6,208 bases of DNA, from assembly GCA_964591795.1 (NCBI GenBank), contig CAZQEL010000030.1, forward strand, positions 1-6,208, written 5' to 3'. Of the stretch, positions 1 through 6,208 are shown piece after piece. Position 1 is the stretch's first letter; each line of letters opens with the position of its first letter. Made by a program: the position numbers and the translations under genes. The notes below the pieces were generated by a model, which did not search any database, was not told the origin of the DNA, and saw only the letters and a list, made by a program, of their open reading frames with translations. This stretch comes from an uncultured archaeon (GTDB lineage: Archaea; Iainarchaeota; Iainarchaeia; Iainarchaeales; CSSED10-239).

Positions 1-206
1 TCACCATAATTATTATCATGACCATGTAATTTACTAGGAAAAGGATCTATATCATATCTATAAAAAATCCAAACTCTATTATTTGATTTAATTATTTTCT
101 TTGCCACACATAAGGAACCATTTTTAAGAATAATAATAGATTCCTCTTCTGGTACATTTAGTGCCAATTTAACAATTATTGAATTTGAAGATAATTTCCC
201 TCTCAA
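1..206 (-). CDS. hypothetical protein, N-terminal fragment (3' end outside window), putative TTG start
   Basis: Not in the ORF track; found by manual translation of the minus strand. The frame has 68 open codons from TTG (204..206) to the window edge: LRGKLSSNSIIVKLALNVPEEESIIILKNGSLCVAKKIIKSNNRVWIFYRYDIDPFPSKLHGHDNNYG. An in-frame TAA lies 8 codons upstream of the TTG, and there is no in-frame ATG or GTG. A strong SD, AGGTGA (211..216), sits 4 nt upstream of the TTG. In sequence this AT-rich, stops are frequent, so a 75-codon open frame co-directional with its neighbours is unlikely by chance. No family recognised. Confidence 0.45.
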   Translation of the reverse strand, partial: MRGKLSSNSIIVKLALNVPEEESIIILKNGSLCVAKKIIKSNNRVWIFYRYDIDPFPSKLHGHDNNYG

Positions 207-210
207 ATAT

Positions 211-216
211 TCACCT
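211..216 (-). promoter_or_regulatory. Shine-Dalgarno AGGTGA upstream of the TTG-initiated downstream ORF
   Basis: Minus strand reads AATAATAGGTGAATATTTGAGAGGG. The 6-nt SD match is followed by a 4-nt spacer (5 nt from the AGGTG core) and then TTG at 204..206. Confidence 0.45.
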
Positions 217-262
217 ATTATTGATATTTATATAAGATTAGTTGCATATTTTTCAGATAAGT

Positions 263-285
263 AAAAAAATTATTATAAATAATTT
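263..285 (-). terminator. weak candidate intrinsic terminator (A/T-only hairpin plus T-run) 14 nt downstream of the methyltransferase stop
   Basis: Perfect 8-bp inverted repeat AAATTATT (267..274) / AATAATTT (278..285) with a 3-nt loop. On the minus-strand transcript it is followed by a T-run (the A7 run at 263..269 on the plus strand, partly inside the stem). The stem has no G:C pairs, so predicted stability is low, and such palindromes arise by chance in AT-rich DNA. Confidence 0.25.
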
Positions 286-298
286 ATATTTTAGTTGT

Positions 299-3200
299 TC
301 ATTTATTTTCCTCAATTATTTTTATTTCATCAAGGGTTAATTCATATAATTTATAAACTAATTGATCAATTTCTGCTTCTAATTGTTTAACTTTTTGTAG
401 TTTAATTTTGTTTTCGAGATAATCTTCATCTTTAGTAATTAAAAGAATTTGATCCACTAATTGAATAAAAGGTTTTTGTTGTTCTGGAGAGATATGTTTT
501 ATGGGTAAAACTTTCATGTGATTTGGATAAAAATGAGTTCCATCATAATAAAGCTCATTAAAATAAAACTTAATTATTTTTGAATTTAATATTGATTGTA
601 AATAAAAAAGGTTATATTTTTTAGATGTTTGCATTTTATCTAAATTAATAGTTCTTTTGATTGTTACATAATCTACATTTTTAAATTTATACCATAAAGT
701 TAATATAACAACAGAATCATTGCAATAATGCTTATTATCATCATAAATAAAACGCAATTTGGAAATATCACTTAAAGTTCTTAGTCCAACTAATTTATCA
801 TTATTAAATAATTCCGGAAACATTGGATTATACATTACTTTTGGCTGAAAGTCTAAATAATAGCTATTTTTTAAACTCCAATATCCCATATCTTTTCCTT
901 CGAAATATTTTTTAAATTCAGGTTTTTCCTTTTTTAAATAAATAAAAAATTCTTTTTTTAAATTTAATTTTTCACTACTTGGTCTTAATCCATAATTTAC
1001 AGAACAAATATCTTGAACTTGCAAACAATTATTTTTTATTTTTCTTAAGAGTATTAATTTATCTTGGGTTAAGTTTATTCTAAAATTATTTTCTTCAGTT
1101 TTATCAAAAATATTTTGCTGAATATATTTATAGTTCTTATTTATGAAATCAAATTTTTGTTCTTTTGTATGTATGTCAATGATAGATATTAGATTTTTTT
1201 CAAAATATTTTTTTGAAATTTGAATTATTGAAGTTCTTACTGTGGCTGTGTCAAAAATATCATAATTAAAATTTATAATAATATTTATATTATTTTTCAA
1301 AAATAACTGTCTTAACTTTAAACCATATTTTTGAGATAAAAACTTATTAGATGTAATATAACTTATATTTCCATCTTCTCTAAGTAAATCAATACCCAAT
1401 TCATAAAAAAGAATATATAAATCATACTTTTGAAACGCAGTTTTAAATTTAGAATATACTGGTTTTAAATCAGAGTTGATTTGCTCTATGTTTATGTAAG
1501 GTGGATTACCAATAACTATATCAAAACCAGGATTGTCTCTATTAAAAACATCATTAAAATATAATTCCCAGATAAAAAAAGGTTTTGATTTTGATTTTTT
1601 TATTTTTTGTAATTTATCTAAAGCTTCTTTAGAATTTTGTTCTTTTAATTTTTCTTCAATAAAACCCCACTCAATATTATCTATTTGAGCCTTTAATTCA
1701 TGTTTTTTAATCCGACTTGATTCGTTAAAGTATTCTTTTTGTAATTTTTGAAGTTTTTTAAATAATATATCTGATTTACTATCAAATATTTTTGTTTGAT
1801 ATGAATCTTTTTCTTTATTTTTATTAATTAATAAATTATTAAATAATTTAATTTCCTCAAATTCATCTAAAAGACTATTTCCACACATTATCTTATTATC
1901 TAAATTTGGAAGTGGTTTAATATTATCCATATTATCTTCATCTACAATAAGAGATAACCAAAATCTTAATTTAGCAATTTCTACTGCAGAAGGTTCAATA
2001 TCTACACCATATAGTGAATTCTCAATGGTTTCTCTTTTAAGAAAATAGTTTGTTCTTTTTTTCTGTTCTTTTTCAGAAAGTAAAAAAGTTAAAATAGATC
2101 TACATTTAATAATTTCAGTCATCATTCCAACTGGAAAGGCACCAGAACCAACTGCGGGATCTGCAATTTTTACATTTAACAATAATTCATCAATTTTTTT
2201 AAAATTGATTTTGATAGAGTCAGGTAGCGGAAATCTATTTACAGAAATAGTATAATTATTTTGTTTACTATCTTCTTGATCTCTAATTAATTCACTTAAT
2301 GTATATTCCCCATTTATTACAAAATAGTCTATATCATTTCGGATAATATTTTCTATTTTTAAATTAGTTTCTAAATAATTAATTAGTGATTGTTGACACA
2401 TATAATGAACAATCTCTCTAGGAGTATAAAATGCACCTTTAGATTTTCTATCATTTACTTCTAATAATTCTTCAAAAACTCTACCTAACATTTCTGGATC
2501 TACAGCAACTTCTTTATCTAATGGTTCATCTTCTTTAATTGTAAAATTAAATCTGTCAAAAACATCAAAAATATCTTTAAATATTGCATTATCAATTAAG
2601 ATATCTGTTTTTTCCCAAGAATAATTATTTATTGGTTCGAATAATCCACCATTTAGAAATGGTATTTTACATTTAAATCTACTATAATAATCATTATTTT
2701 CTTTTCTATCAATGGCAAGTGCTTCATAAAATAAAGGTTCTAATATATCATTAAAAAAATTATTATAAGTTATATTTAATTTTTTATCGAATAACCTTTT
2801 TAAAAAACCTTTTGGACCTGAACCCCATTTATTAAAATCACCATTATTATCTTTTGTAACACCAAGCCAACCTTTCTTTTGTAAAAAATATAAAAATACA
2901 ATTTGCCCTAACAATTTTTTAGAAAAAGAAATAGAATCAATATCTTTATCACTAAATTCTTTTTTAATATTTTCATCTTTTTCAACTAAAGAATCTAAAG
3001 ATTCCTTTAATCTAAAATATAAATTTTTATATTCATTAAAAAATTCTTTAGTTACATTATCAACACTAAATGATTTTTCGATTTCATCTATAGTAGGATT
3101 AATTTCATTTTTAATTATAAAAGACTCTAATTGCTTTTGACAAGTATAATTGGATTCATTTTTACCAACTAAATAAGAATATCTTTTTATAGGTGTTATC

Positions 3201-3619
3201 TCAGTAGAGGTTTTCAATTTACCAGAATCATTAAATACAATTTTAGCTTCTACTTTTACAAAAGAAAATCTCCAATCATCTAAATTTTCATCTGTAAATG
3301 CTATTAAAGATGCATTACTTTGTTTATATTTTAAATAATTTGCAACAAAATTTCGTTGCATTGTCCTTGCTCTATCAATAGAACTATGTTTTTTTAATTT
3401 AATAATTAATATATTTAATATTTGTCTATTATTTTTATATTTTCCGAGATCATAGGCTTCAGAAATATATTCTTTAAAAGAAGAATGAACAAATATCTTT
3501 GATTTTTTATATTCAAAAGCACCATTAAAAATTTCAGTTATAAATTTAACGAATTGTTCTTCATTAAAACTGTTTTTGAATGTATCTTTTAATAATTTAT
3601 GTGCATCTTCTTTATTCAT
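299..3619 (-). CDS. Eco57I/MmeI/PglX-like gamma-class N6-adenine DNA methyltransferase with N-terminal PD-(D/E)XK-like motif and C-terminal TRD (putative Type IIG restriction-modification fusion)
   Basis: 1106-aa ORF, ATG 3617..3619, TGA 299..301. Motifs occur in gamma-class order. KGAFYTPREIV (FYTP 2420..2431). Motif I IADPAVGSGAF (2141..2161). YGVDIEPSAVEIAKLRFWL. CGNSLL. A long Lys/Glu-rich helical insertion, then FFIWELYFNDVF...GFDIVIGNPPY (NPPY 1496..1507), the pre-NPPY signature of Eco57I-type enzymes. The helical-domain signatures LYFLQKKGWLG and IPFLNGGLFEP are shared with MmeI/PglX-type enzymes. The C-terminus, ...LEAEIDQLVYKLYELTLDEIKIIEENK, is the typical TaqI_C-like tail. The N-terminus carries D110-X13-E124-A-K126 (3242..3292) flanked by hydrophobic beta-like strands. 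MTase identity is high confidence; nuclease activity is inference. Confidence 0.92.
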   Translation of the reverse strand: MNKEDAHKLLKDTFKNSFNEEQFVKFITEIFNGAFEYKKSKIFVHSSFKEYISEAYDLGKYKNNRQILNILIIKLKKHSSIDRARTMQRNFVANYLKYKQSNASLIAFTDENLDDWRFSFVKVEAKIVFNDSGKLKTSTEITPIKRYSYLVGKNESNYTCQKQLESFIIKNEINPTIDEIEKSFSVDNVTKEFFNEYKNLYFRLKESLDSLVEKDENIKKEFSDKDIDSISFSKKLLGQIVFLYFLQKKGWLGVTKDNNGDFNKWGSGPKGFLKRLFDKKLNITYNNFFNDILEPLFYEALAIDRKENNDYYSRFKCKIPFLNGGLFEPINNYSWEKTDILIDNAIFKDIFDVFDRFNFTIKEDEPLDKEVAVDPEMLGRVFEELLEVNDRKSKGAFYTPREIVHYMCQQSLINYLETNLKIENIIRNDIDYFVINGEYTLSELIRDQEDSKQNNYTISVNRFPLPDSIKINFKKIDELLLNVKIADPAVGSGAFPVGMMTEIIKCRSILTFLLSEKEQKKRTNYFLKRETIENSLYGVDIEPSAVEIAKLRFWLSLIVDEDNMDNIKPLPNLDNKIMCGNSLLDEFEEIKLFNNLLINKNKEKDSYQTKIFDSKSDILFKKLQKLQKEYFNESSRIKKHELKAQIDNIEWGFIEEKLKEQNSKEALDKLQKIKKSKSKPFFIWELYFNDVFNRDNPGFDIVIGNPPYINIEQINSDLKPVYSKFKTAFQKYDLYILFYELGIDLLREDGNISYITSNKFLSQKYGLKLRQLFLKNNINIIINFNYDIFDTATVRTSIIQISKKYFEKNLISIIDIHTKEQKFDFINKNYKYIQQNIFDKTEENNFRINLTQDKLILLRKIKNNCLQVQDICSVNYGLRPSSEKLNLKKEFFIYLKKEKPEFKKYFEGKDMGYWSLKNSYYLDFQPKVMYNPMFPELFNNDKLVGLRTLSDISKLRFIYDDNKHYCNDSVVILTLWYKFKNVDYVTIKRTINLDKMQTSKKYNLFYLQSILNSKIIKFYFNELYYDGTHFYPNHMKVLPIKHISPEQQKPFIQLVDQILLITKDEDYLENKIKLQKVKQLEAEIDQLVYKLYELTLDEIKIIEENK

Positions 3620-3620
3620 A

Positions 3621-6208
3621 TTAATTACCTACAAGCCATTCAGACAATATAACTTCTCTAGGACCAGAAGTGTTTGCAGAACTTTTAAAATTATTAAAAT
3701 ATTCTTTAGAAATATTTGATTTTAAAATACTTAATATTTTTAATGGGTTGTCAGAATTTTCTTTTTTAATATCATTTAACGATTTCTGAATCATTTTCTT
3801 TGGAAGACTTCCTTTATTTAATAAATCAATTAAATTTAAGATAAACTCATCATCATCTTCAGTAAAAACATTTGAATTAGTAATTGCTTTTACAAATTTT
3901 AGTAACTGAGATTCATTACTACGACCTCTTCCAGATAAATCAGAAACATTAGTATCTGTATCAAAAATATAATTAAAGGTGTCTTTATTTATTTTTAAAT
4001 AATCATAAAATTTATTTGAAATTTTTTCTTTTTTTAGATCCACTTTAGATTCAAAATATTTTATAGCTTCTACAAAGTTTAATTCATCAGAAATTAACCC
4101 TTCAGTAACAAATATTTTTTTTAACTTACCCTTTTTTAAAAAAGTAATTAATTTATCTTTCTTTTCAAAATATTTTTTAGCAGTTCTAGATTTTTTTGGT
4201 AGTTTTTTAATTTTTGCAAATAATTTATCATCATTATCTCTAATACCTCTTATAATTTGCAAATATTTTAATTCTTCGTCATCATCTTCTGAAGAATCAT
4301 CTAAAATATCTTTAGAAATTAATTTATTAAATAAGTGATGAGATTTTATTGGTTCATCAGTCAATAATTTAGAATCATTTCCAAGCATTTCAATAAATGC
4401 TTCAATTTTAGCTTCTGCAGCATCTTTTAATTTAATTTTATCATCAATAACCCCTATTGGAAAAAAGTTGTAGGTATATAATTTTTCATGAGTTGTGTCT
4501 ACTCTATTTATACGACCTACTCTCTGCATCATCTTTATTGGATTCCAAGGAATATCATAATTAATAATTACACTTGCTTGATGAAGATTTACACCTTCTG
4601 CTAATATATCAGTTGTAACTAAAATTCTAAAATCATTTTTAATAACATTAGCCCTTGCATCAAAATTAGATATTAACTCGTCTTTATTTATTTGTTTTAT
4701 ATTGCTATAAAAAGGTAATACCGTATTATCAAATTTTTTATTTAATTGATTAGAAAGATATTCTACAGTTTCTTTTGACTCAGAAAAGACAATTAACTTA
4801 TTATTTTTGAGTATTTTATCAGTTTTTAAAATATCGATAAATTGATCTAATTTTGGATCCACATAAATGAAATCCCATTTTTCTTTTATTTGTTTTAAAA
4901 TTTTTAAATCATCCTTTAAATCTTTAATAAACAAAGAATTAAATTTATTTGAAGGATATTCTTTAGCGGATTCATTATCAATTAATTTTTGAATACTTTC
5001 TAAATCATCATTATCTAATAGTTCAAATATTTTATTTACATTTTTACTAATATATACTTTTTTATTAACTTCAAACACATCTATAAAATTTTCATAAGAT
5101 TTAATAAATCTGTTAATTGACCTTTTAAAAGCATCAAAACTACTCTCAAGTCTTTTTAAAAGTAACCCTTTCATAAAATTACCCATATTCTTTTGAGATT
5201 GTTTTTCCATTTCAGAAAGAGATTCTGTAAAATAAGTTAATGCCATATATCTAGAGTATTTAAATTTATTAATGATTAAATCTAAAGTTTCATCAAAGAC
5301 CTTATTTGTTTCAACATCAAAATTATAATACACAGGACAAGGTGCTTCAACTATTGGAAATTTAAGATTTTGTTGACTTAAATCTTCGGCATAATATTTA
5401 CTAACCCCATTTCTAGTTCTTCTAACCATTATATATTTTAAAACATTTTCTCTAATATCTTTTGCATTTGATTTAATAATTTTTAAGTATTCTTCTTTAT
5501 CAATACTTCTATCTAAATTGTCTAATCTTTTTTGTAAACTTTTAAAATATAATTCTAAATCTCTTACTTTTGGATTTGGAAGTGTTGAATGATGTCTATC
5601 TTGAAATAATGATATTTGACTTAATATGTCCATTGGAGTATTATTTAAAGGAGTTGCAGTAACTAAAATTATTTTTTTACCCCTACAAATTTTATGTAAT
5701 TGTTCATACATTTGAGTTGAATCAGTTCTAAATCTATGAGCTTCATCTATAAATACATTTTCAAAATCATCTACACCTTTTTTTATTAAATGATCTAATT
5801 TACCTATAGATTCAACTTTAAAACCTCTTACCCCAAATTCTCTTAACACATTTGGCCAAGAACCTGGTTTATCTTCATCTAAAAGAGATGGAGGTGCTAT
5901 TATTAATGAATTACCAGTTAATTTTTGAGCAAGTAAAGTTGACATATAAGTTTTACCTAAACCCACAACATCTGATAAAAATACACCACCATATTGTTCA
6001 AGTCTGTCTTTTGCTTGATTAACAGCATCTGTTTGATATTTAAGATTTAAATAGTGTTTAGGTAAATAAAGATCATTTAATTCACTATCTTTATTAATTT
6101 CATCTTTAAAGTATTCATATAAAAATTTTAAATATAATTCATAAGGAGTTATACTTGTATTTAACCATGTTTTTGTTTCAATTGAATTTATGTATGTTTC
6201 AGATACAT
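3621..6208 (-). CDS. SNF2/Rad54-like superfamily-2 helicase (ATP-dependent dsDNA translocase); 5'-partial, continues beyond the window end
   Basis: ORF track gives 3621..5966. I translated 5967..6208 by hand in the same frame. It is open with no stop, reading ...TKTWLNTSITPYELYLKFLYEYFKDEINKDSELNDLYLPKHYLNLKYQTDAVNQAKDRLEQYGGVFLSDVV-GLGKT. It contains no in-frame ATG/GTG/TTG, so the true start lies outside the window. SF2/SNF2 motifs occur in order: Q-like LKYQTDAV; I DVVGLGKT (5949..5963); Ia LIIAPPSLL; II FIDEAH (DEAH at 5736..5747); III LVTATPLNN; SNF2-type IMVRRTR; V LVTTDILAEGVNL; VI QRVGRINR (4503..4526). About 280 aa follow motif VI with no recognisable motif. Stop TAA at 3621..3623. 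Confidence 0.93.
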   Translation of the reverse strand, partial: VSETYINSIETKTWLNTSITPYELYLKFLYEYFKDEINKDSELNDLYLPKHYLNLKYQTDAVNQAKDRLEQYGGVFLSDVVGLGKTYMSTLLAQKLTGNSLIIAPPSLLDEDKPGSWPNVLREFGVRGFKVESIGKLDHLIKKGVDDFENVFIDEAHRFRTDSTQMYEQLHKICRGKKIILVTATPLNNTPMDILSQISLFQDRHHSTLPNPKVRDLELYFKSLQKRLDNLDRSIDKEEYLKIIKSNAKDIRENVLKYIMVRRTRNGVSKYYAEDLSQQNLKFPIVEAPCPVYYNFDVETNKVFDETLDLIINKFKYSRYMALTYFTESLSEMEKQSQKNMGNFMKGLLLKRLESSFDAFKRSINRFIKSYENFIDVFEVNKKVYISKNVNKIFELLDNDDLESIQKLIDNESAKEYPSNKFNSLFIKDLKDDLKILKQIKEKWDFIYVDPKLDQFIDILKTDKILKNNKLIVFSESKETVEYLSNQLNKKFDNTVLPFYSNIKQINKDELISNFDARANVIKNDFRILVTTDILAEGVNLHQASVIINYDIPWNPIKMMQRVGRINRVDTTHEKLYTYNFFPIGVIDDKIKLKDAAEAKIEAFIEMLGNDSKLLTDEPIKSHHLFNKLISKDILDDSSEDDDEELKYLQIIRGIRDNDDKLFAKIKKLPKKSRTAKKYFEKKDKLITFLKKGKLKKIFVTEGLISDELNFVEAIKYFESKVDLKKEKISNKFYDYLKINKDTFNYIFDTDTNVSDLSGRGRSNESQLLKFVKAITNSNVFTEDDDEFILNLIDLLNKGSLPKKMIQKSLNDIKKENSDNPLKILSILKSNISKEYFNNFKSSANTSGPREVILSEWLVGN
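3627..3630 (-). promoter_or_regulatory. Shine-Dalgarno-like AGGT for the methyltransferase gene, embedded in the last codons of the helicase gene
   Basis: Minus strand reads GTAGGTAATTAATATG. AGGT is 7 nt upstream of the ATG (3617..3619). The helicase TAA stop (3621..3623) lies between the SD and the ATG. Confidence 0.5.

What the first reader, a model, noticed from the sequence alone, without database searches (positions are those of the whole stretch)
299..6208. SNF2 translocase coupled to a nuclease-MTase-TRD protein: candidate helicase-dependent Type IIG-like defence module
Seen in sequence: an SNF2-family helicase gene is followed directly by a 1106-aa Eco57I/MmeI-like m6A methyltransferase gene on the same strand with no intergenic space. 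The window contains no second methyltransferase and no stand-alone restriction endonuclease. Established knowledge: classical Type IIG enzymes (Eco57I, MmeI, BpuSI) act as single polypeptides without an NTPase. Single-TRD gamma-class MTases of this type usually methylate one strand of an asymmetric site. Systems with one-strand modification (Type III, Type ISP, BREX) need long-range communication along DNA to tell self from non-self. SNF2-type motors in prokaryotic defence are known from DISARM (DrmD) and Zorya (ZorD). Inference: the helicase may supply ATP-driven translocation to a Type IIG-like nuclease/MTase. That would give the functional content of a Type ISP enzyme (nuclease + motor + MTase + TRD), but split over two genes and with the nuclease attached to the MTase rather than to the motor. 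This is also the reverse of Type III Res/Mod. I do not recognise this arrangement as a characterised RM type. The competing explanation is that this is the drmD-drmMI pair of a class 1 DISARM locus.
Basis: partly seen in the sequence, partly recalled or inferred. Interest (0 to 1): 0.8.

Follow-up and report, generated by a model that had tools for sequence, protein, structure and literature searches.

The report
Two-gene motor-nuclease plus methylase defence module
The window holds a tightly conserved gene pair, an ATP-driven SNF2 motor (which in all full-length relatives carries its own PLD nuclease) followed by an Eco57I-like adenine methylase, that looks like a widespread but never-tested kind of restriction-modification system rather than DISARM or a classical one-protein Type IIG enzyme.

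Summary
The gene pair is real. On the minus strand, an SNF2-like helicase (3621..>6208, cut by the contig end) is followed after 1 nt by a 1106-aa gamma-class N6-adenine methylase with one TRD (299..3619). Starting from the methylase, 70 of 72 evaluable genome loci have the helicase directly upstream. Starting from the helicase, 87 of 88 loci have the methylase directly downstream. No third gene is conserved, and no DrmA/DrmB/PglZ/BrxC was seen in relatives, so DISARM is rejected. The domain assignment is wrong. All 117 full-length homologues (about 1060 aa, up to 86% identical) carry an N-terminal PLD/HKD nuclease with invariant HxK...GSSN. That domain lies just outside this window. The proposed D110/E124/K126 nuclease triad on the methylase is not conserved. 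The methylase N-terminal domain matches no known nuclease by fold, profile or Pfam. The system therefore reads nuclease-motor | adaptor-methylase-TRD. That is a Type ISP enzyme split in two, functionally parallel to Type III Res/Mod, not its reverse. It is widespread (over 580 species genomes, archaea and bacteria). It has been noticed only in passing in the literature and appears uncharacterised. I file it as a new variant of a known kind, of moderate to high interest.

The parts
3621..6208 (-). Gene for the motor subunit: the C-terminal 861 aa of an approximately 1061-aa PLD(HKD)-SNF2 helicase-nuclease. The first ~200 codons, which encode the PLD domain, are cut off by the contig end.
   Evidence: The frame is open to the window edge. 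The fragment is 86% identical without gaps to residues 201-1059 of P0001. Pfam finds Helicase_C, SNF2-rel_dom and ResIII. The best PADLOC models are DrmD for the window fragment and C3a139 'HKD+Snf2' for the full-length homologue P0001.
5949..5963 (-). Walker A motif GLGKT (fragment residues 82-86)
   Evidence: Read from the translation. G282-T286 are invariant in alignment A4.
5736..5747 (-). DEAH box (fragment residues 154-157)
   Evidence: Read from the translation. D354, E355 and H357 are invariant in A4.
4500..4853 (-). Helicase C-terminal RecA lobe with SNF2-type motifs (DIPWNP...QRVGRINR)
   Evidence: Pfam Helicase_C, 3.1e-23, residues 452-569.
3620..3620 (-). 1-nt spacer between the helicase stop codon (TAA) and the MTase ATG, suggesting translational coupling
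   Evidence: In relatives the gap is 10 nt or less, or an overlap, in 33 of 58 loci.
299..3619 (-). Gene for the modification/specificity subunit: family-specific N-terminal domain, helical region, gamma-class N6-adenine MTase, single TRD and C-terminal helices (1106 aa)
   Evidence: PADLOC REase_MTase_IIG PDLC03596 scores 645 bits. The AF2 model has pLDDT 80.7. Its fold matches CamA, BrxX/PglX, MmeI, BpuSI and DrdV.
3110..3619 (-). N-terminal domain (aa 1-170) of unknown fold, the hallmark of this MTase family; proposed adaptor to the motor subunit
   Evidence: Conserved residues are R85, Q88, R89, W116, R117, S119, R146 and E155 (52/52 each), D115 and K122 (51/52 each) and D/E124 (52/52). 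There is no PDB fold hit, no PDB profile hit and no Pfam hit. In 1.84e9 representatives it is found at the N-terminus of long (mostly ~1000-1300 aa) proteins, plus short entries that are probably fragments.
2420..2437 (-). MTase motif X (GAFYTP, aa 395-400)
   Evidence: G395, Y398, T399 and P400 are invariant in A1.
2135..2161 (-). MTase motif I, the AdoMet-binding site (DPAVGSGAF, aa 487-495)
   Evidence: D487, P488 and G491-F495 are invariant.
1496..1507 (-). MTase catalytic motif IV (NPPY, aa 705-708)
   Evidence: P706, P707 and Y708 are invariant.
500..1219 (-). Single target-recognition domain (aa 801-1040), the most variable part of the protein
   Evidence: Pfam TaqI_C at 904-1040. Mean identity to homologues is 28%, against 44-71% in the other regions.

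Best explanation
The window encodes a two-subunit, ATP-dependent restriction-modification-like defence module. Subunit 1 is the upstream gene, truncated here. It is a restriction/motor protein with an N-terminal single-HKD PLD nuclease fused to an SNF2-type dsDNA translocase. Subunit 2 is a modification/specificity protein with a family-specific N-terminal domain, a helical region, a gamma-class N6-adenine methyltransferase and one TRD. Proposed mechanism (inferred, not shown): the MTase subunit recognises a short asymmetric site through its single TRD and methylates one strand of host DNA. On an unmodified site it recruits or licenses the PLD-SNF2 subunit, probably through its conserved N-terminal domain. 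ATP hydrolysis then drives translocation or long-range communication along the DNA. Cleavage occurs when two motor subunits meet, because a single HKD motif supplies only half of a PLD active site and two copies must dimerise. That would make restriction depend on site orientation, which resolves the hemimethylation problem as in Type III and Type ISP. The domain order nuclease-motor | (adaptor)-MTase-TRD is that of a Type ISP enzyme split into two polypeptides, with PLD in place of the Mrr-type nuclease and SNF2 in place of the Type I-like motor.
For: Shown: domain content. The helicase fragment aligns without gaps from residue 201 of an 86%-identical 1061-aa protein whose PLDc_2 domain is at 107-195. 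H138, K140, G159, S160, S161 and N162 of the HKD motif are invariant in 117/117 full-length homologues. The two genes are linked in both directions: 70/72 loci from the MTase side and 87/88 from the helicase side, on the same strand, mostly overlapping or 10 nt or less apart. No other neighbour family is conserved; the largest is found in 8 of 80 loci. The two MTase-only loci lie among housekeeping genes, whereas the motor was never clearly seen without the MTase. This is the asymmetry expected if the motor is the toxic restriction part. The TRD is the hypervariable region (28% identity). A Prevotella homologue has a TRD shufflon with an Mpi invertase, as Milman et al. 2023 reported. The neighbours are defence-type genes such as GmrSD, ParE, Schlafen/AlbA_2, NYN and PDDEXK_1. 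There is a single TRD, and the fold is close to the one-strand methylases CamA, MmeI and PglX. Established knowledge: single-HKD nucleases (Nuc, BfiI) and SauUSI act as dimers. SauUSI combines a PLD nuclease with an ATPase (PMC7913695). CglI/NgoAVII combine a PLD nuclease with an SF2 translocase (PMC4267653, PMC5737866).
Against: There is no biochemical or genetic evidence for any member. The PLD domain of this particular gene is not in the window and is inferred from homologues. The interaction between the two proteins is inferred from gene linkage only. Methylation of one strand and site-orientation dependence are argued by analogy. The many invariant polar residues in the MTase N-terminal domain (D115, K122, D/E124, R146, E155, H158) would also fit a catalytic site rather than an adaptor. 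In 19 of 58 loci the two genes are 340-1583 nt apart, with variable inserted genes (NYN, AlbA_2), so extra components may matter in some lineages.
Confidence: 0.7

Rival explanations
1. One reading: the MTase polypeptide carries the (PD-ExK) nuclease as in Eco57I/MmeI, and the SNF2 protein only supplies translocation. This would be a helicase-assisted Type IIG enzyme, the reverse of Type III.
For: In this one sequence D110-X13-E124-A-K126 mimics the PD-X13-EAK motif that I recall for Eco57I from my own knowledge. PADLOC calls the protein REase_MTase_IIG. The N-terminal domain has an alpha-beta-beta-beta-alpha run of elements and conserved acidic and basic residues: D115 and K122 in 51/52, D/E124 and E155 in 52/52.
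Against: D110 is kept in 5/52, A125 in 1/52 and K126 in 18/52 homologues. The AF2 model of aa 1-230 (pLDDT 85.5) has no PDB hit at E<=1e-3, a best TM-score of 0.28 and no recognised restriction-type nuclease in the top 50. BpuSI and DrdV are in the library with their nuclease domains. A profile search against PDB sequences (including MmeI, BpuSI, DrdV) and Pfam scans find nothing. Of the Type IIG models whose printed stretches cover this part of the protein, only the family's own model reaches aa 1-226; the next best, PDLC03601, aligns from about residue 227. The motor has its own invariant PLD nuclease. The 'Type IIG' label is a default: PglX was formerly listed as Type IIG in REBASE (PMC12707154).
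Confidence: 0.1
2. The pair is the drmD-drmMI part of a class 1 DISARM locus whose drmA/B/C genes lie beyond the contig ends.
For: DrmD and DrmMI models give the best named non-RM hits. The contig ends 0.3 kb downstream of the MTase and inside the helicase gene, so the window's own flanks cannot be inspected.
Against: The scores are far below family cut-offs: DrmD scores 126 bits against a cut-off of 610, and DrmMI matches only the catalytic core. In nine annotated relative loci, most with several kb of flank, no DUF1998/DrmA is present. Clustering of neighbours over 80 genome loci finds no conserved third gene. The PLD (DrmC-like) function is fused to the motor instead of being a separate gene.
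Confidence: 0.03
3. A BREX-related or MANTIS-like multi-component system (Type-2 BR: DUF499 ATPase, DUF3780, MTase and HKD-Swi2/Snf2 helicase) of which only two genes are seen.
For: Type-2 BR helicases have the same HKD-Swi2/Snf2 architecture (PMC12839542). BrxHII and HmaA models hit the helicase core.
Against: No DUF499, DUF3780 or AAA+ gene is conserved next to the pair. The MTase here scores as a REBASE-type 'Type IIG' protein with a TaqI_C-type TRD (645 bits). It falls far below the curated cut-offs of the NCBIfam BREX PglX models (65.8 bits against 500).
Confidence: 0.05
4. A classical self-sufficient Type IIG enzyme that merely lies next to an unrelated helicase, or a non-defence role such as epigenetic regulation or DNA repair.
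For: Two orphan MTase copies lie among housekeeping genes. SNF2 proteins have many non-defence roles.
Against: The 97-99% two-way linkage with translational-coupling distances across many phyla and both domains is not chance. The hypervariable TRD, the shufflon, the defence-island neighbours and 11 IMG/VR contigs point to conflict.
Confidence: 0.05

Closest known systems
Type ISP restriction-modification enzymes (LlaGI, LlaBIII)
   Same: Same linear order of functions: nuclease, SF2 ATPase motor, gamma-class N6-adenine MTase, single TRD. A single TRD, which by analogy implies an asymmetric site with one-strand methylation. ATP-driven communication is expected.
   Different: Here the functions are split into two polypeptides at the motor/MTase boundary. 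The nuclease is PLD/HKD rather than Mrr-type PD-ExK. The motor is SNF2-like rather than Type I HsdR-like. The MTase has a family-specific N-terminal domain where Type ISP has a coupler. No sequence-level relationship was shown beyond generic SF2 and MTase cores.
Type III RM (EcoP15I Res/Mod)
   Same: Two genes, one for helicase plus nuclease and one for MTase plus TRD. Hemimethylation logic. Cleavage is expected to need two sites.
   Different: Type III Mod is a beta-class MTase and Res is a ResIII/Rad25-like helicase with a C-terminal PD-ExK nuclease. Gene order is mod then res. Here the MTase is gamma-class Eco57I-like, the motor is PLD-SNF2, and the order is motor then MTase.
Type IIG/IIL enzymes (Eco57I, MmeI, BpuSI, DrdV)
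   Same: The MTase-TRD half is homologous: Pfam Eco57I, MmeI_Mtase and TaqI_C, and Foldseek hits to MmeI, BpuSI and DrdV.
   Different: Those enzymes act alone, with an N-terminal PD-ExK nuclease. This family has a different N-terminal domain that is not recognisably a nuclease, and an obligatory PLD-SNF2 partner gene.
Class 1 DISARM (DrmD + DrmMI + DrmA/B/C)
   Same: An SNF2 helicase next to an Eco57I-like adenine MTase, with a PLD nuclease in the system.
   Different: No DrmA/DrmB. The PLD is fused to the SNF2 protein. HMM scores are far below the curated DISARM cut-offs.
Type-2 BREX-related (BR) systems and MANTIS/Hma (Gao_RL)
   Same: A helicase-nuclease effector (HKD-Swi2/Snf2 in Type-2 BR) works with an adenine MTase that sets specificity. 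MANTIS hemimethylates and prefers inverted sites (preprint 10.64898/2026.09.23.753747).
   Different: Those systems need a DUF499 AAA+ ATPase (plus MtsB or DUF3780). None of these is linked to the pair here, whose MTase scores as a REBASE-type 'Type IIG' protein and far below the BREX PglX cut-offs.
CglI/NgoAVII and SauUSI (PLD nuclease plus SF2 motor restriction enzymes)
   Same: A PLD-family nuclease whose action depends on an SF2 ATPase. SauUSI has the same N-terminal PLD-helicase fusion and is a dimer (PMC4267653, PMC5737866, PMC7913695).
   Different: In CglI the PLD and the helicase are separate proteins, recognition is by a B3-like domain on R, and the MTase is separate. SauUSI is a modification-dependent Type IV enzyme with its own SRA-like reader and no MTase.
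ARMADA type II (ArmA BrxHII-like SNF2 + ArmB PglX-like MTase + ArmC YprA + ArmD UvrD)
   Same: An adjacent SNF2 helicase and PglX/Eco57I-like MTase pair.
   Different: ARMADA needs YprA and UvrD helicase-nucleases. Neither is linked here.

Membership tests
Class 1 DISARM | DrmA (YprA-type helicase) and DrmB (DUF1998) genes in the locus | tested here: not met
   Absent from all annotated relative contexts. No conserved third neighbour in 80 genome loci. The window's own flanks cannot be tested because the contig ends.
Class 1 DISARM | The helicase meets the curated DrmD model | tested here: not met
   NF038317 scores 126.5 bits against a cut-off of 610; NF038318 scores 62 against 950.
Type IIG (Eco57I/MmeI-like) | Gamma-class N6A MTase plus TRD in one polypeptide | tested here: met
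   Pfam Eco57I 121.8 bits, MmeI_Mtase, TaqI_C. Motifs X-I-IV occur in that order. Fold hits to MmeI, BpuSI and DrdV.
Type IIG (Eco57I/MmeI-like) | N-terminal PD-(D/E)xK endonuclease domain on the same polypeptide | tested here: not met
   The proposed triad is not conserved. No fold, profile or Pfam similarity to any nuclease. A very divergent REase-like fold cannot be strictly excluded.
Type IIG (Eco57I/MmeI-like) | Acts as a single polypeptide without an NTPase | not testable with these tools
   Obligatory genomic linkage to a PLD-SNF2 gene argues against it, but only experiment can decide.
Type ISP RM | Nuclease, SF2 motor, MTase and TRD in that order | tested here: met
   The order across the two genes is PLD, SNF2 | N-terminal domain, MTase, TRD.
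Type ISP RM | All functions in one polypeptide, with an Mrr-type nuclease | tested here: not met
   Two ORFs separated by a stop codon. The nuclease is PLDc_2.
Type III RM | Beta-class Mod MTase and a Res subunit with a C-terminal PD-ExK nuclease | tested here: not met
   The motif order X-I-IV is gamma-class. The nuclease is an N-terminal PLD. The motor has SNF2-type motifs.
BREX | PglZ and BrxC in the locus; the MTase meets a PglX model | tested here: not met
   No PglZ/BrxC in relatives. NF033452 scores 65.8 bits against a cut-off of 500.
Type-2 BR / MANTIS (Gao_RL, Hma) | DUF499 AAA+ ATPase (plus DUF3780 or MtsB) in the locus | tested here: not met
   No DUF499, DUF3780 or AAA+ gene is annotated next to the pair in the relative contexts with Pfam calls, and no third neighbour family is conserved in 80 genome loci. 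HmaA hits only the helicase core (80 bits).
PLD-SNF2 + Eco57I-like MTase pair (unnamed; CDD cd09178-type motor as cited in PMC9881135; PADLOC C3a139) | Motor of about 1060 aa with an N-terminal HKD and an SNF2 core, directly followed by an MTase carrying the family-specific N-terminal domain | tested here: met
   53-86% identity to 120 homologues, 117 of them longer than 1000 aa. The MTase N-terminal domain matches the family profile. The PLD part itself lies outside the window.
PLD-SNF2 + Eco57I-like MTase pair (unnamed) | Restriction and modification activity | not testable with these tools
   No experimental report was found in 7 literature searches.

The most novel reading that the evidence does not exclude
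This pair represents an uncharacterised, widespread class of ATP-dependent restriction-modification: a 'split Type ISP' built from non-homologous parts. A hemimethylating Eco57I-like MTase uses a family-specific N-terminal domain of unknown fold to license a single-HKD PLD-SNF2 translocase, and cutting requires two motors to meet and complete one PLD active site. A bolder variant is that the conserved N-terminal domain (D115, K122, D/E124, R146, E155, H158) is itself a new catalytic domain, giving the complex two different nucleases.
Probability: 0.4. Interest if true: 0.7.

Novelty: new variant of a known kind. Interest (0 to 1): 0.6.

Why it matters
If the model holds, thousands of genes now annotated as 'Type IIG restriction enzyme/methylase' and 'helicase-related protein' are two halves of one ATP-dependent RM type. 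No member of that type appears to have been tested. The type is common in DPANN and other archaea and in many bacterial phyla, and it also occurs on putative viral contigs. It would show that the Type ISP/Type III solution to the one-strand-methylation problem (long-range, orientation-sensing communication) arose independently from SNF2 and PLD parts. It would give a minimal two-protein counterpart to DISARM, BREX-related and MANTIS systems for mechanistic study. It would also correct defence-system annotation, because DefenseFinder and PADLOC would probably call only a Type IIG gene here. The hypervariable single TRD could offer new programmable m6A specificities.

Tried and rejected
(1) I looked up the exact contig. 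It is only 6.1-6.2 kb, so the flanks of this locus cannot be read.

(2) A sequence search of the MTase against PDB returned only CamA and BseCI over the catalytic core, with nothing for the N-terminus.

(3) A Foldseek search with the N-terminal domain model found no significant hit. A profile search of the same domain against PDB sequences gave only a MarR chance hit at E=0.31. Pfam scans of 23 N-terminal domains at E<=5 gave only noise.

(4) A helicase profile search against PDB returned only generic SF2 cores (DEAD-box and SNF2). SauUSI, RapA and DrmD did not stand out.

(5) A repeat search in the window for TRD shufflons or inverted repeats found only AT-rich chance matches.

(6) The window's third ORF shows no similarity to the downstream gene of the closest relative, so it is not part of the module.

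(7) A plasmid collection search found only distant relatives (37% identity or less). One of them, in Prevotella nigrescens, was a useful annotated example.

(8) Literature searches for a named system found Hma/MANTIS, BR systems, ARMADA and AbiR. All were rejected because they need further components or a different MTase.

(9) NCBIfam 'phospholipase D-like anti-phage protein' NF042964 scored 124 bits against a cut-off of 1100, so the helicase is not a member.

(10) Apparent 'conserved' small ORF families in the neighbour clustering were antisense shadow ORFs inside the two genes.
Full report
**Observation.** The 6208-bp window has about 22% G+C and is an entire metagenomic contig. The exact MTase protein is on record only on contigs of 6115 and 6208 bp. 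Both long ORFs lie on the minus strand. ORF 299..3619 encodes a 1106-aa protein. The frame upstream of it (3621..6206) is open to the window edge, so the helicase gene is truncated at its 5' end and 861 codons are visible. The helicase stop codon and the MTase start codon are separated by one nucleotide, TAA-T-ATG.

Pfam finds Eco57I (4e-35), MmeI_Mtase and TaqI_C on the MTase. It finds Helicase_C (3e-23), SNF2-rel_dom and ResIII on the helicase. GLGKT, DEAH and NPPY are all present. The motor also has SNF2-type motifs (TATPLNN; DIPWNP...QRVGRINR). The only other ORF is a 68-aa fragment running off the window start (3..206, minus strand), with no family match.

The 120 best homologues of the helicase fragment share 53-86% identity with it at 100% coverage. 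Nearly all of them are about 1055-1075 aa long and carry PF13091 (PLDc_2), often also PF09565 (RE_NgoFVII), in front of the SNF2 core. The closest, P0001 (86% identical), aligns without gaps from its residue 201. Its PLDc_2 domain lies at residues 107-195, just beyond the window end. In 117 of 117 full-length homologues the single HKD signature is intact: H138, K140, G159, S160, S161 and N162 are invariant. The motor protein of this family is therefore a PLD nuclease-SNF2 fusion. For this particular gene that is an inference from homology.

**The supposed nuclease on the MTase.** In an alignment of 52 homologues (A1), D110 is present in 5, A125 in 1 (48 have Y) and K126 in 18. The conserved positions are D115 (51/52), K122 (51/52), D/E124 (52/52), R146 and E155 (52/52), plus an RARTMQRN helix. 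The D110-X13-E124-A-K126 pattern thus looks like a chance resemblance in this one sequence to the PD-X13-EAK motif that I recall for Eco57I.

The full-length AF2 model (pLDDT 80.7) matches CamA, BrxX/PglX, MmeI, BpuSI and DrdV through the MTase-TRD body. A separate model of residues 1-230 (pLDDT 85.5) has no PDB match at E<=1e-3. Its best TM-score is 0.28 and no recognised restriction-type nuclease is among the top 50 hits. A profile of the domain finds nothing among PDB sequences, and Pfam finds nothing in 23 members. Among the PADLOC Type IIG models whose printed stretches cover this part of the protein, only the family's own model reaches residues 1-226; the next best, PDLC03601, aligns from about residue 227 onward.

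Searched against 1.84 billion representative proteins, the domain finds 2311 hits. In the top 150 it sits at the N-terminus of long (mostly ~1000-1300 aa) proteins, plus short entries that are probably fragments. It is a hallmark of this MTase family with unknown fold and function. A very divergent REase-like fold cannot be excluded, but nothing supports it.

**Is the pair a unit?** I scanned one genome per GTDB species with the MTase alignment. More than 580 genomes matched, from Woesearchaeota, Nanoarchaeota, Altiarchaeales, Methanobacterium, Thermoplasmatales and many bacterial phyla. Of the 80 loci kept, 71 have the helicase upstream on the same strand. Seven of the remaining nine lack enough upstream DNA to judge, and two (L046, L065) truly lack the helicase. 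Those two MTases lie among housekeeping genes.

In the other direction, I scanned IMG/VR and JGI metagenomes with the helicase alignment. Of 88 evaluable loci, 87 have the MTase directly downstream on the same strand. The single exception has only 659 nt of sequence after the helicase. The gap between the two genes is an overlap or 10 nt or less in 33 of 58 genome loci.

All-against-all clustering of ORFs in the 80 genome loci finds no further conserved neighbour. After removing antisense shadow ORFs, the largest family occurs in 8 loci. Nine relative loci with gene annotation show no DUF1998/DrmA, PglZ, BrxC or DUF499. The core is therefore two genes.

Recurrent optional extras are:
- A small winged-helix ORF, or an HTH_3 regulator, overlapping the helicase start.
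- A NYN RNase or an AlbA_2/Schlafen-HATPase_c_4 gene inserted between the two genes.
- A PDDEXK_1 nuclease downstream.

**What it most likely is.** The motor-nuclease was never clearly found without the MTase, whereas the MTase occasionally survives alone. The TRD is the most variable region, with 28% mean identity against 44-71% elsewhere. One bacterial homologue has TRD cassettes and an Mpi invertase, as Milman et al. reported for such loci (PMC9881135). The neighbourhoods are rich in defence genes. These are the signatures of a restriction-modification system in which the PLD-SNF2 protein is the restriction subunit and the MTase is the modification and specificity subunit.

Read across both genes, the domain order is nuclease, SF2 motor | N-terminal domain, gamma-MTase, TRD. 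This is the order found in Type ISP enzymes, here split into two polypeptides and built from different nuclease and motor families. Functionally it parallels Type III Res/Mod.

The mechanism is inferred, not shown. A single TRD and similarity to CamA, MmeI and PglX suggest an asymmetric site methylated on one strand. A single HKD motif supplies half of a PLD active site, so two motor subunits must come together, as in Nuc, BfiI and the dimeric PLD-helicase SauUSI (PMC7913695). ATP-driven translocation from unmodified sites would then give orientation-dependent cleavage, as in Type III, Type ISP and, in graded form, MANTIS (preprint 10.64898/2026.09.23.753747). By analogy with the suggestion that the conserved BrxX N-terminal domain is an interaction interface (PMC12839542), I propose that the MTase N-terminal domain couples to the motor.

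**Comparison with known systems.**
- DISARM is rejected. DrmD scores 126 bits against a cut-off of 610, there is no DrmA/B, and the PLD is fused to the motor (and the contexts above).
- BREX is rejected. The PglX model scores 66 bits against a cut-off of 500, and there is no PglZ/BrxC.
- Type-2 BREX-related systems share the HKD-Swi2/Snf2 effector but need DUF499 and DUF3780, neither of which is linked to the pair here.
- Hma/MANTIS, ARMADA and AbiR likewise need extra components.
- Classical Type IIG membership fails on the nuclease domain and, by inference from gene linkage, on acting alone.

The family has been noticed but not studied. Milman et al. [quoted passage not shown] Shah et al. 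2019 list 'C3a139, HKD+Snf2' as a neighbour of type III CRISPR loci. Seven literature searches found no name or experiment for it. These searches cover open-access papers and bioRxiv only, so a study in a subscription journal could have been missed.

**Verdict.** The domain assignment, and hence the claim of 'reverse Type III, nuclease on the MTase', is not. The locus is one member of a large, uncharacterised two-gene RM-like family. I rate it a new variant of a known kind, with interest about 0.6.

Noticed in passing
window 3..206 (minus strand): A third ORF starts 93 nt after the MTase stop (TTG at 206) and runs off the window start. Its 68 aa (MRGKLSSNSIIVKLALNVPEEE...HGHDNNYG) have no Pfam, PADLOC or NCBIfam hit. 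It is not similar to the gene that follows the MTase in the closest relative L090.
   Followed up: partly
L004 9760-10008, L008 9754-10008, L009 9753-10004, L006 7166-7417; L091 4032-4235: A small ORF of about 83 aa, overlapping the start of the helicase gene, recurs in archaeal relatives. The copies are 42-54% identical to each other, with weak MarR/TrmB-like winged-helix signals. In Prevotella nigrescens the same position holds an HTH_3 (Cro/C1) regulator. This may be a C-protein-like controller of the module. It lies outside the window.
   Followed up: partly
L137 9183-9680 (and loci with a ~605-630-nt gap: L117, L132, L150, L157, L158, L166, L175, L045, L078, L040): In a subset of loci a gap of about 605-630 nt separates the helicase and MTase genes. 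In L137, the one gap I read, it holds a 165-aa NYN-domain (PIN-like RNase) gene (Pfam 1e-11). This may be an optional accessory effector.
   Followed up: partly
L008 13264-14637; L083 8483-9928 (family present in 8 of 80 genome loci): A Schlafen/AlbA_2 + HATPase_c_4 (+ Fic-like_C) gene is sometimes inserted between the two core genes or lies just downstream.
   Followed up: partly
L006 17996-19192; L008 20911-21588; L040 18186-19004 (6 of 80 genome loci): A PDDEXK_1 (Cas4/RecB-like) nuclease gene recurs downstream of the MTase in a minority of loci. L006 also has a separate PLDc_2 gene and an AAA_11/AAA_12 helicase gene there (a Mokosh-like combination by my recollection, untested).
   Followed up: no
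L046 10001-13138; L065 10001-13723: Two family MTases have no helicase anywhere within +/-10 kb. They lie among housekeeping genes (GlmU-like and CorC; aminotransferase and LpxC-FabZ). They are probably orphan methylases left after loss of the restriction subunit.
   Followed up: partly
L092-L102 (IMG/VR contigs): Eleven contigs classed as viral in IMG/VR carry the complete helicase-MTase pair. The module may travel on prophages or other mobile elements, or these contigs may be misclassified.
   Followed up: no
L091 (Prevotella nigrescens NZ_CP082843.1 379870-391493): A bacterial homologue of the pair is followed by two inverted partial Eco57I-domain genes and a master DNA invertase (Mpi). This is a TRD shufflon that would switch the system's specificity. 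No such repeats exist in the window.
   Followed up: partly
L090 932-1900: In the closest relative (86% identical helicase) a VRR_NUC + HIRAN protein is encoded about 170 nt upstream of the helicase gene on the same strand, with a 37-aa ORF between them. It was not seen in other contexts.
   Followed up: no
alignment A4 (helicase homologues P0001-P0116): The motor protein is unusually conserved: 74% mean column identity across 31 sequences. The helicase fragment is also 53-58% identical to most of its 120 best homologues. This suggests strong constraint and frequent horizontal transfer, in contrast with the fast-evolving TRD of the partner MTase.
   Followed up: no
window 1..6208: G+C is only about 20-27% throughout. 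The best named homologues of both proteins come from DPANN archaea (Woesearchaeota, Nanoarchaeota), so the contig probably derives from such an organism. This was not tested further.
   Followed up: no
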